A stretch of DNA of 63,862 nt, the filler included, from Kipferlia bialata (Eukaryota), in assembly GCA_003568945.1 (NCBI GenBank). It is 7 parts of 7 records of this genome, joined end to end, with 100 filler letters (N's around TTAATTAATTAA, not from the genome) between each part and the next. Parts side by side here need not be neighbours in the genome. Positions count along the whole stretch, not along the records: positions 33,739 to 44,870 come from BDIP01001282.1; 6 more parts are not named here. The stretch is one strand, 5' to 3'. Positions 40,191 to 43,100 of the stretch are shown here, one piece after another. Position 1 is the first letter of the stretch, and every line of letters starts with the position of its first letter. The translations under genes were made by a program, and so were the position numbers. The notes beneath the pieces are model-generated. The model searched no databases and was not told where the DNA came from. It saw only the letters and a list, made by a program, of their open reading frames with translations.

Positions 40191-43100
40191 TACCCCCTCA
40201 CATCAGGGATGCCACTCACATCAACACCCACATGCCCACCCCCACCCCCAACAGCTACATGTCACCCATGTCACCCACAGTGTCAAAGGCACAGTTCATG
40301 AGGTAAATTAGTATACTCTTTGTTATATTTATATTTACAGAGTACTTAGTAGTACTGGAGTGTGCTTCACTTATGCTATACATGTCACCCACAGTGTCAA
40401 AGGCTCAGTTCATGAGGTAGGGATACGTGTATAGTAAATGCTACAGTACGATATACTCTTGTGGTTCTCTAGTATGTTATACTCTATCTATATATAGTGT
40501 ATATGTCACCCACAGTGTCAAAGGCTCAGTTTATGAGGTATTGATTCACACGGCTACTTTGTACCATACTCTTTTACCTATATTCACCCCCAGGTCCCCA
40601 GCTGCCAGTGTCCAGATGTTCTCTCTCTCTCTCTCTCTCTCCATATGAACCCTCTGTCTGTTCTCAAATATACCCTCACCCCCAGGTCCCCAGCTGCCAG
40701 TGTCCAGATGGCACCTGATCACCAGAGGTGAGAGTGTGTATATGTATATATATGGAGTATGCGTTCGCTCTCTACACCCCTAGTACCTAGGCAGCCCTCC
40801 TTCAACCTGTACATCCCCTTCACTCCTACTCTCTCTCTCTCTCTCTCTACACCCCTAATGCCCAGGCAACCCTCCTTCAACCTGTACATCCCCTTCACCC
40901 CTGGCCTCTCTCTCTCTCTCTCTCTACACCCCTAATCCCCAGGCAACCCTCCTTCAACCTGTACATCCCCTTCACCCCTGGTCTCTACACCACGTGTCTG
41001 TGCCATGCATCCAGACTGGATACAGCGGTGGTGTCTAACCCTATGCTAGGTACACACCAGTATATATATATGTGTATCATACAGCAGTTGTATCCAATCC
41101 CATGCTAGGTGTGTATAGTGTATTGTATATATAATATATAGTATATATACTATGTGTCTGTGCCATGCCTCTAGGCTGGACACAGCAGTGGTGTCTAACC
41201 CAATGCTAGGTATAGTAGTATGGTATATATATACATAGTATGTATACATATGTCTCATGTGTCTGTGCCATGCATCCAGACTGGACACTGCGGTGGTGTC
41301 TAACCTATGCTAGGTATCAAAGAGTGTGTAGAGTGTGTAGTGTATAGCTGGCTTGTACATATATGTATATATGTTTGTAGCCCTTACTACTAGGCGTCTC
41401 TAACACCAATTGGGGCATCTAGTGGCACCATCTAGTATCTACATGTCTCTATGTGATGAATATATATGTATATCTGTAGGGTAGATGCGTAATGACACCA
41501 GGCGAGTCTGACACCAAGTGGGGCAATGCCGGTATACTATCTATCTACCTGTCTCTATATATACAGATGTATGTGTCTATTCCTCACCTTCCAGGCGTGT
41601 CTGACACCAAGTGGGGCAATGCCATTGCAGTCTTCATCAGTGCAGACCCGGGGAGGAAGGTGCATGACTACGTATATTTCTTTTTCGTTGTCAATATGTA
41701 TATATATGTATATATATATACTCTTCTACCCCCCAGGTCCCCCCCATGCGCAAGAGGAGAGGAGTGGACAGACGGTCCAGCCCATACCTGACAGGTATAC
41801 ACTGTATGTACATGTATGTATATGGGTGGGTATATACATATATAAGTATAGAGAGAGAGAGATAGATGTGGACAGACGGTCCAGCCCATACCTGACAGGT
41901 ATATAGTGAATGTACATGAATGTGTGTGTGTATCGTTATTACATGTATATTGAGAGAAAGGGAGGTTGGCTTCAGACATTGCCCAGCCCTCCTCCAAGGA
42001 TGAGCCACTGTCTCTCTCTATCAATCATTCATATATATATATGTGTGTGTGTACATACTACATACTCATGAATGCACTCACTCCCCAGACATTGCCCAGC
42101 CATCCTCCAAGGATGAGCTACTGGCACACTCCCAACTGATTAGTCAGCAGAGAGGTATGAGTGTTCTGGTGCTTGTTGTACGGTGTACGATGTATGGTGT
42201 ATATCTCAACCTCTCTCTCTCTCTCTCTTTCAATCATCCTCTCTCCCTCTCTATGCCCTTACCCTAGGCGCTGTCCACTCCCTTGTGTCCAGTATACTCT
42301 CTCTCTCTCTCTCTCTCTCTATACATATATATATATACACTCATACCCCAGGCGCTGTCCACTCCCTGGTGTCCAGTCTACTCTCTCTCTCTCTCTCTAT
42401 ATCTCTCTATATATATGTATATATATATATATATATTCNNNNNNNNNNNNNNNNNNNNNNNNNNNNNNNNNNNNNNNNTATATATATATATTCCCTCACT
42501 CTTAGGTGCTGTCCACTCCCTGGTGTCCAGTCTGCTGAGGGAGGGCATCATTCCAGACACACTCAACCAGGTACATGTAGAATATGTATATATATTTACG
42601 AGACCTATACTAATCATGTTATTACGCCTTACCCCTAGGCCTCCCACGGCAGTGCCCTTCTGACCATAAAGCACCTCTCTCTCTCTCTCTCTCTCTCTCC
42701 CTCCCTCTCTCTCTTTCTTACATTAGGCCTCCCACGCCAGTGTCCTCCTGACCATAAAGCACCTCTCTCTCTCTCTCTCTCTCTCTCCCTCTCTTGAAGT
42801 ATTTATATATTTATATATCTGATCCCCAGGCCTCCCACGGCAGTGCCCTTCTCACCATGAGGCCTCTGCTGCCTAAGCTCCCGGGGGTGGTACGTGTATA
42901 TATACTGATACTTCATATATGAAATAGGACTATGCTCTCAAAGCTCCCAGAGGTGGTACGTACAGTGTGTATACACTTCTGACTGACTTGAATTCTTCTG
43001 TCTCTCCCGCATTCTCTCTTGATTTATATATATACTCTTACTTCCAGGTATACTTCAGCGCTGTGTCCCGACCCTCTGGTGCTGCCTTTGTACCCAGTGT

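What the first reader, a model, noticed from the sequence alone, without database searches (positions are those of the whole stretch)
40943..41313. Three downstream echoes, each a different synonymous recoding of the same peptide
The exon ending at 41049 encodes CLCHASRLDTAVVSNPML. Echo 41079-41108 has 6 changes in 30 nt (GCA GTT GTA TCC AAT CCC), all synonymous. Echo 41155-41209 has 6 changes (GCC TCT AGG GAC GCA CCA), all synonymous. Echo 41260-41313 has 2 synonymous changes plus a 1-nt deletion. All keep CTAG|GT. Four codon versions exceed what a simple diploid could supply, and near-saturated silent sites imply long coding histories.
Basis: partly seen in the sequence, partly recalled or inferred. 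Interest (0 to 1): 0.85.

Follow-up and report, generated by a model that had tools for sequence, protein, structure and literature searches.

The report
Recoded exon-edge copies stacked inside introns
In three genes of the free-living protist Kipferlia bialata, two thirds of the introns examined hold short copies of the neighbouring exon edge that differ mostly at silent codon positions; they are likely relics of recombination between strongly diverged alleles, which would point to hidden sex in a group where sex has not been seen.

Summary
Confirmed, and not a mis-assembly. One read-derived DNA contig (847 nt, depth 475, no differences) spans the exon and all three echoes; an RNA-type contig splices 41049 to 41595 and skips them. 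The host is Kipferlia bialata. The pattern is general in three genes: 99 echoes in 56 of 83 introns, none with a wrong exon; 192 of 284 differences are synonymous, against 26-31% for neutral change and 42-47% for a self-copy decaying beside a selected exon (p=4e-12). Silent divergence (about 0.28) does not track how alike the intron flanks are, and echo splice signals stay strong. One gene (MCM10-like) shows no excess. Best reading (0.6): junction-spanning tandem duplications whose exon part was then exchanged with diverged alleles, implying outcrossing; donors were not found, and junction microhomology was not significant. The scan met the same architecture before in a sea urchin, where one-sided selection sufficed; here it does not. 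Closest in print: the human F7 intron-7 repeat. New variant of a known kind.

The parts
40943..41049 (+). live exon (107 nt) of hypothetical protein P0004
   Evidence: RNA-type contig matches 40941-41047 with 0 differences, joint GT..AG cut +2; open frame
41050..41594 (+). 545-nt intron holding three 3' echoes, then two 5' echoes
   Evidence: skipped in one piece by the RNA-type contig; spanned by one DNA contig 40947-41793
41079..41108 (+). 3' echo 1: exon end + GT, 6 synonymous changes
41154..41209 (+). 3' echo 2: exon end + GT, 6 synonymous changes
41259..41313 (+). 3' echo 3: exon end + GT, 2 synonymous changes, 1-nt deletion
41394..41417 (+). 5' echo of the next exon, with its own AG (1 synonymous, 2 non-synonymous)
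41502..41530 (+). 5' echo of the next exon, with its own AG (1 non-synonymous)
41595..41659 (+). next live exon
   Evidence: RNA-type contig 41593-41657, 0 differences
40791..40834 (+). 5' echo of the focal exon in the upstream intron
   Evidence: skipped by the RNA-type contig
40866..40909 (+). second 5' echo of the focal exon in the upstream intron
   Evidence: skipped by the RNA-type contig
35212..44760 (+). host gene (30 modelled exons plus first exon; runs off its contig 33739-44870); 34 echoes; dS 0.365, dN 0.041
   Evidence: model identical to P0004 at 769 of 785 residues
45196..55973 (-). second echo-rich gene (32 modelled exons); 43 echoes; dS 0.317, dN 0.038
12075..21423 (-). third echo-rich gene, MCM10-like (modelled in three pieces); 22 echoes; dS 0.111, dN 0.035, no synonymous excess
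   Evidence: one exon matches Pfam zf-primase weakly, E=0.007, below cut-off; the name MCM10 is my recall of the motifs

Best explanation
The echoes are real, unspliced tandem copies of exon edges with their splice sites, and they are likely fragments of former alleles left by recombination between strongly diverged haplotypes. Shown: each unit is 13-69 nt of exon edge, its GT or AG, and about 70 nt of intron; each adds about 92 nt; exon-end copies always lie before exon-start copies; the mRNA contig uses the outermost sites. Inferred step 1: a break in a microsatellite-rich intron or near an exon edge is repaired with a short tandem duplication across the splice junction (aborted homologous repair closed by end joining, then unequal exchange between units); only duplications that leave the partial copy inside the intron are tolerated. 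Inferred step 2: because introns are too diverged to pair, exchange with other haplotypes is confined to the exon part, so the live exon or its echo is overwritten by an allele about 0.3 apart at silent sites; the codon versions are alleles that were under selection in other individuals. This needs three or more haplotypes, hence outcrossing or hybridisation, followed by homozygosity at this locus. Inferred step 3: echoes then decay slowly and are lost by collapse between the repeats. Inferred step 4: the spliceosome ignores them because each has only one splice site (exon definition).
For: Single DNA contig and spliced contig. 192 of 284 differences synonymous, 201 at third positions, 31 and 21 in the wrong frames; dN/dS 0.13; p=4e-12 against self-copy decay, 9e-8 after counting shared changes once; 12 of 30 echoes with four or more differences are purely synonymous, 0.6 expected. 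Echo-echo differences 60 synonymous of 108. Three synonymous states at 8 codons in 6 of 26 multi-copy families; five two- or three-base synonymous codon switches, one Ser TCA/AGT. pS 0.27-0.29 whatever the flank likeness (Spearman 0.00, 74 echoes); 9 units with 11% flank mismatch still have pS 28/95 (examples). dN is equal in all three genes while dS differs threefold (p=2e-5), as expected of locus-specific diversity over one decay clock. Echo flanks differ at half their bases yet keep splice-site scores (0 of 2000 random-decay runs reach them). Sibling echoes share the far end in 23 of 39 pairs. Literature: crossovers confined to exons in a hypervariable fungus (PMC4209137, abstract); fornicates lack Ku and Rad51A and keep two Dmc1 (PMC8516963, section 8); Dmc1 stabilises mismatched triplets (PMC6719624, abstract); aborted SDSA plus end joining gives tandem duplications (PMC8654963, passages).
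Against: No donor allele was seen: the DNA run shows one version at this locus and two metagenome scans found no close relative (0 matches; best 53% identity among 13 loci). Junction microhomology not enriched (p=0.17, 84 end points). Far echoes are not clearly more decayed (26 against 15 non-synonymous, p=0.08). After dropping the most synonymous echo of each family the private changes are 9 and 9 (p=0.03-0.07), so many echoes behave as neutral copies of each other. The MCM10-like gene fits plain self-copy decay (13 of 28; p=0.6). Silent-site diversity near 0.3 is extreme. Only three genes, one DNA run and one RNA-type run; most exon boundaries are modelled, not read from RNA. The splice-score null ignores indel shifts; the young-flank set was chosen on flank likeness.
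Confidence: 0.6

Rival explanations
1. Echoes are kept at the nucleotide level as splicing decoys or recursive-splicing sites, so they are frozen snapshots while the live exon drifts at silent sites.
For: Echo donors and acceptors score as high as the real ones (32 of 53 and 22 of 46 at or above); branch-type motif before 40 of 46 echo AGs against 139 of 894 other AGs; where all echoes agree against the exon, 17 of 20 changes are synonymous.
Against: Needs echoes to evolve at 0.19-0.24 of the neutral rate while their flanks change at half of the bases; nearest and farthest echoes are equally far at silent sites (44 and 45); pS does not grow with flank divergence; 27 of 83 introns do without echoes.
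Confidence: 0.12
2. Echoes are silent coding cassettes that recombination moves into the live position often enough for selection on the protein to act on them.
For: dN/dS 0.13; non-synonymous changes slightly conservative (p=0.02); two of four indels found are 3-nt; shared end points fit expansion and collapse.
Against: Two stop codons and two 1-nt indels; no RNA-type contig lies on the focal echoes and the mRNA carries live-exon codons; in one clonal line only one copy is coding at a time, so this alone cannot build dS 0.3 with dN 0.04 (inference); cassettes with the same peptide offer no variation to select.
Confidence: 0.12
3. Plain self-duplication across splice junctions and neutral decay; silent bias arises only because the live exon is protected (the scan's sea urchin reading).
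For: Fits the MCM10-like gene (13 of 28 synonymous; young-flank echoes pS 0 of 42); own flanks are related (54-58% against 39-42%).
Against: Rejected for the other two genes: 179 of 256, p=2e-13 against 0.473; 12 of 12 in the focal family.
Confidence: 0.08
4. Live exons mutate several times faster than introns (for example by error-prone RNA-templated repair), selection removing the non-synonymous changes.
For: Live exons differ from echoes at silent sites more than adjacent flanks do.
Against: Silent distance should then scale with duplication age and does not; absent in the MCM10-like gene.
Confidence: 0.05
5. Assembly artefact: haplotypes or paralogues joined in series.
For: Short-read draft with contigs near 11 kb and N gaps; the species was called diploid from k-mers (PMC5874029, passage).
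Against: One unbranched read-derived contig of 847 nt spans all junctions at depth 475, like its neighbours (428-478), with no other letters; echoes carry stops and frameshifts. Tested at one locus only.
Confidence: 0.03

Closest known systems
Human F7 intron-7 37-bp VNTR spanning the exon-intron boundary (PMC1557585, abstract read)
   Same: Repeat unit spans a splice junction; real donor followed by intact pseudo-donors that stay silent; the most upstream donor is used.
   Different: One locus, pseudo-sites identical in sequence, donors only. Here 1.2 copies per intron in three genes, both intron ends, diverged spacers, and synonymous recoding beyond one-sided selection.
Internal (intragenic) tandem duplication and intron gain by tandem genomic duplication (search listings; mechanism recalled)
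   Same: Short tandem duplications inside genes that include splice signals.
   Different: In intron gain the duplicated exonic segment itself becomes the intron. Here existing introns lengthen, exon-end copies precede exon-start copies (11 of 11), and no new intron is made.
Tandem duplications from aborted SDSA closed by polymerase-theta end joining (PMC8654963, passages read)
   Same: Direct repeats from about 100 bp upward; plausible birth route in a lineage without Ku.
   Different: Those copy the sister, so the copies are identical, median 1 kb, with microhomology; here units are about 100 nt, differ at silent sites, and microhomology was not significant.
Exon-confined crossing-over in hypervariable Schizophyllum commune (PMC4209137, abstract read)
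   Same: Exons as the only islands similar enough to recombine between diverged haplotypes.
   Different: Shown there by a cross, with no stacked exon-edge relics in the abstract; here inferred from relics in a single genome.
Tandem exon duplication with mutually exclusive splicing, Dscam type (recalled)
   Same: Neighbouring copies of exon sequence under synonymous-biased divergence.
   Different: Those are whole exons with both splice sites and are translated; these have one site and are skipped.

Membership tests
Assembly mis-join of haplotypes or paralogues | Junctions not supported by read-derived contigs | tested here: not met
   one 847-nt contig, 0 differences, spans 40947-41793
Assembly mis-join of haplotypes or paralogues | Full-length exons with the other codon versions in the reads | tested here: not met
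   no other letters at 80% likeness; depth equals the single contig over echo 2 and the next exon; contigs drop rare variants
Junction-spanning tandem repeat (F7 IVS7 type) | Unit spans an exon-intron boundary and repeats the splice site | tested here: met
   99 GT- or AG-anchored copies
Junction-spanning tandem repeat (F7 IVS7 type) | Pseudo-sites silent, outermost site used | tested here: met
   four consecutive exons and both loose ends of one RNA-type contig; low depth, one gene
Junction-spanning tandem repeat (F7 IVS7 type) | Units are self-copies, near-identical or decaying neutrally | tested here: not met
   179 of 256 synonymous in two genes, p=2e-13; met in the MCM10-like gene only
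Mutually exclusive tandem exons | Each copy has both acceptor and donor | tested here: not met
   3' echoes precede 5' echoes in 11 of 11 introns with both; copies are partial, median 31 nt
Mutually exclusive tandem exons | Copies appear in mRNA | tested here: inconclusive
   none in the one RNA-type run; rare isoforms would be dropped
Intron gain by tandem genomic duplication | Intron is made of the duplicated exonic segment, starting with the downstream exon's copy (recalled definition) | tested here: not met
   reverse order; echoes make up 15% of intron bases
Aborted-SDSA / theta-mediated tandem duplication | Direct tandem repeat of about 100 bp or more | tested here: met
   each echo adds about 92 nt; spacer median 69 nt
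Aborted-SDSA / theta-mediated tandem duplication | Microhomology at the junction | tested here: inconclusive
   proxy test p=0.17
Aborted-SDSA / theta-mediated tandem duplication | Polymerase theta present and required | not testable with these tools
   no genome held; supplement of PMC8516963 not read
Exon-confined inter-allelic gene conversion | Exon part diverged independently of adjacent intron | tested here: met
   pS 0.27-0.29 across flank classes, Spearman 0.00
Exon-confined inter-allelic gene conversion | Donor alleles exist in the population | tested here: inconclusive
   no second isolate found

The most novel reading that the evidence does not exclude
Kipferlia keeps a genome-wide archive of exon-edge alleles in its introns: Dmc1-only recombination swaps codon versions in and out of live exons, so every intron records past matings with diverged strains, and the stored edges are returned to coding position often enough to be under selection.
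Probability: 0.15. Interest if true: 0.92.

Novelty: new variant of a known kind. Interest (0 to 1): 0.72.

Why it matters
[quoted passage not shown] If echoes are former alleles, one genome holds thousands of dated multi-allele samples, from which diversity, outcrossing and conversion tract lengths can be read without a second isolate. The introns are also a natural test of splice-site choice: decoys as strong as the real sites sit 60-260 nt away and are skipped, in an organism with a reduced spliceosome (87 of 174 proteins searched; PMC6679479, passages). Echoes add about 92 nt each and so set intron length. They mislead gene prediction: the public model P0004 includes one echo as an exon.

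Tried and rejected
Whole genome: none held, so all counts are for this window. Wider read check over 35150-42430 gave no result, so read support rests on 40540-41960. No listed holder is on record as RNA; X2 is a guess, though its contig is spliced at GT..AG. Pfam on 37 exon or ORF pieces named nothing for the host gene; the ESM Atlas gave longin-domain (CCZ1/INTU) clusters at 0.89, a lead only. Degenerate exon motif in metagenomes: 0 matches. eIF2-alpha scan: 13 loci, none above 53%, not used. Microhomology p=0.17; near-far decay gradient p=0.08; no gradient of non-synonymous changes along echoes. S and N per echo uncorrelated. Wrong frames, substitution spectrum (0.26) and trinucleotide context (0.31) do not explain the bias. 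Mobile elements rejected: echoes match only their own exon. Mutual gene conversion between exon and echo, or selection to lower their identity, rejected by argument: neither distinguishes silent from replacement sites in the echo. The automatic gene model took echoes for exons and was curated by hand. Rows left out: echoes with an indel near the splice site (including focal echo 3) or without GT/AG are not among the 99; echo 2 was over-extended to 41141 by the scan, adding 2 synonymous and 3 non-synonymous edge changes; two stretches of the MCM10-like gene were not modelled; 4 of 99 echoes were dropped for N or short flanks. Same-genome look-up of earlier findings: none.

Full report
1. Observation. 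Shared changes counted once give 12 synonymous, 0 non-synonymous. The same intron (41050-41594) also holds two copies of the next exon's start with their AG, and the intron before holds two copies of this exon's start.

2. Source. The window is seven contigs joined by linkers. An eIF2-alpha piece and an exon of the focal gene are 100% identical to proteins that the database names Kipferlia bialata, on contigs of 11149 and 11132 nt, the lengths of contigs 1 and 4. My hand-curated model of 30 exons has no stop in 785 codons and equals P0004 at 769 residues.

3. Artefact test. Two runs hold the stretch. In DNA run X1 one contig of 847 nt, depth 474.6, no differences, covers 40947-41793; neighbours have depth 428-478; no other letters are listed at 80% likeness; depth over echo 2 and over exon 41595-41659 is that contig's alone. 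X1 may be the window's own source, so this tests the joins, not the population. In X2 (RNA by guess) one 2788-nt contig runs through four exons, joins 41049 to 41595 at GT..AG, carries live-exon letters, and nothing of X2 lies on the echoes. A wider check was not obtained.

4. Extent. An anchored ungapped scan of 83 modelled introns in three genes found 99 echoes (53 exon-end, 46 exon-start) in 56 introns; 20 scans with a wrong exon found none. Median length 31 nt; each echo adds about 92 nt; exon-end copies precede exon-start copies in 11 of 11 introns with both; siblings share the far end in 23 of 39 pairs. Flanks are related to the live flank but much changed (8-nt identity 54-58% against 39-42%).

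5. Silent bias. Of 284 differences 192 are synonymous, 90 non-synonymous, 2 stops; 201 are at third positions; wrong frames give 31 and 21. dS 0.30, dN 0.039. Neutral expectation is 0.26 keeping the substitution spectrum, 0.31 keeping trinucleotide context. The fair null is a self-copy decaying beside a selected exon, 0.416-0.473; it is rejected at p=4e-12, and 9e-8 for 156 of 243 unique changes. Twelve of 30 echoes with four or more differences are purely synonymous, 0.6 expected. By gene: 0.70, 0.70 and 0.46; dN is the same in all (0.035-0.041) while dS is 0.365, 0.317 and 0.111. So the MCM10-like gene fits the null and the other two do not.

6. What made the excess. Silent distance is not a clock: pS is 0.294, 0.270 and 0.273 for echoes with close, middling and distant flanks (Spearman 0.00), and nine units with 36 of 322 flank mismatches have 28 of 95 silent and 6 of 279 replacement differences (chosen on flank likeness). 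In the MCM10-like gene echoes with middling flanks have 0 of 42. Two alignments show the effect directly: near-identical intron flanks beside recoded exon ends. Three synonymous states occur at 8 codons in 6 of 26 families. Where flanks differ from the live flank (38 donors, 44 acceptors, half of the bases), splice scores stay near live values and above all 2000 random-decay runs (indel shifts not modelled). A constant silent distance confined to the exon part is what exchange with a pool of diverged alleles gives. Against: no donor seen; microhomology p=0.17 and decay gradient p=0.08; after dropping the most synonymous echo per family, 9 and 9, so part of the set is echo copied from echo.

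7. Mechanism. Shown: structure, polarity, skipping, silent bias, decoupling from flanks. Inferred: birth by junction-spanning tandem duplication, spread by unequal exchange, exon-confined conversion from diverged alleles, slow decay (2 stops; two 1-nt and two 3-nt indels). From print: fornicates lack Ku and Rad51A and have two Dmc1, and sex has not been observed in Metamonada (PMC8516963, section 8 and passages; supplement not read, it bears on which repair genes this species has); Dmc1 stabilises mismatched triplets (PMC6719624, abstract); aborted SDSA with end joining gives tandem duplications (PMC8654963, passages); crossovers fall in exons when haplotypes are 14% apart (PMC4209137, abstract). 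Echo splice sites score like real ones (in the focal intron two donors and one acceptor score above the used ones), yet the outermost pair is used, which points to exon definition (inference, one gene).

8. Known or new. The closest structure is the F7 intron-7 repeat (PMC1557585, abstract). The genome paper of the species (PMC5874029, passages) reports 124,912 introns and a diploid k-mer profile and has no occurrence of 'duplicat' or 'exon' in its main text; PMC6679479 (passages) treats only its spliceosomal proteins. Ten searches (listings only apart from the seven papers named) showed no title or abstract start describing intronic exon-edge copies with synonymous excess; the library lacks most subscription journals. 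The architecture is of a known kind; its density and its allelic signal are a new variant.

9. Verdict. Real, general in this window, not explained by decay of self-copies in two of three genes. Best explanation 0.6; interest 0.72.

Noticed in passing
window 11150-11249, 22396-22495, 33639-33738, 44871-44970, 56100-56199, 62197-62296: The window is seven separate contigs, sorted by length, joined by N-flanked linkers; neighbouring genes across linkers are not neighbours.
   Followed up: yes
window 1-11149, 22496-33638, 56200-63862: Four contigs have 1.3-3.4% dinucleotide microsatellite and no local direct repeats in the self-search, against 7.7-13.2% in the three echo-rich ones: two intron styles in one genome. 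The eIF2-alpha gene (6585-8109) has introns without echoes. Genes there were not modelled for the anchored scan.
   Followed up: partly
window 43203-43238: The public protein P0004 includes this 5' echo as an exon, giving a repeated peptide; probably a prediction error, not checked against RNA.
   Followed up: partly
window 13630-13660 and 16842-16960 (- strand): Exon ends of the MCM10-like gene with a GT donor but no evident in-frame AG acceptor; possible non-canonical junctions or missing exon parts.
   Followed up: no
window 38427-38825: A two-unit block was duplicated: intron flanks about 89% alike, yet the live exon has Ser TCA where all three echoes have AGT.
   Followed up: yes
window 39968-39990, 40050-40065: Shorter echoes of exon 39787-39848 appear to lack four codons in frame; seen by eye, not in the counted set.
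   Followed up: no
window 37305-37330: An upstream copy of an internal part of exon 37366-37444 without its AG.
   Followed up: no
window 35212-44760: Host protein resembles CCZ1/INTU longin-domain proteins by language-model features, score 0.89, a lead only.
   Followed up: partly
window 23706-26525 (-) and 1914-3572 (+): Long intron-free reading frames (939 and 552 codons stop to stop) with no Pfam match.
   Followed up: no
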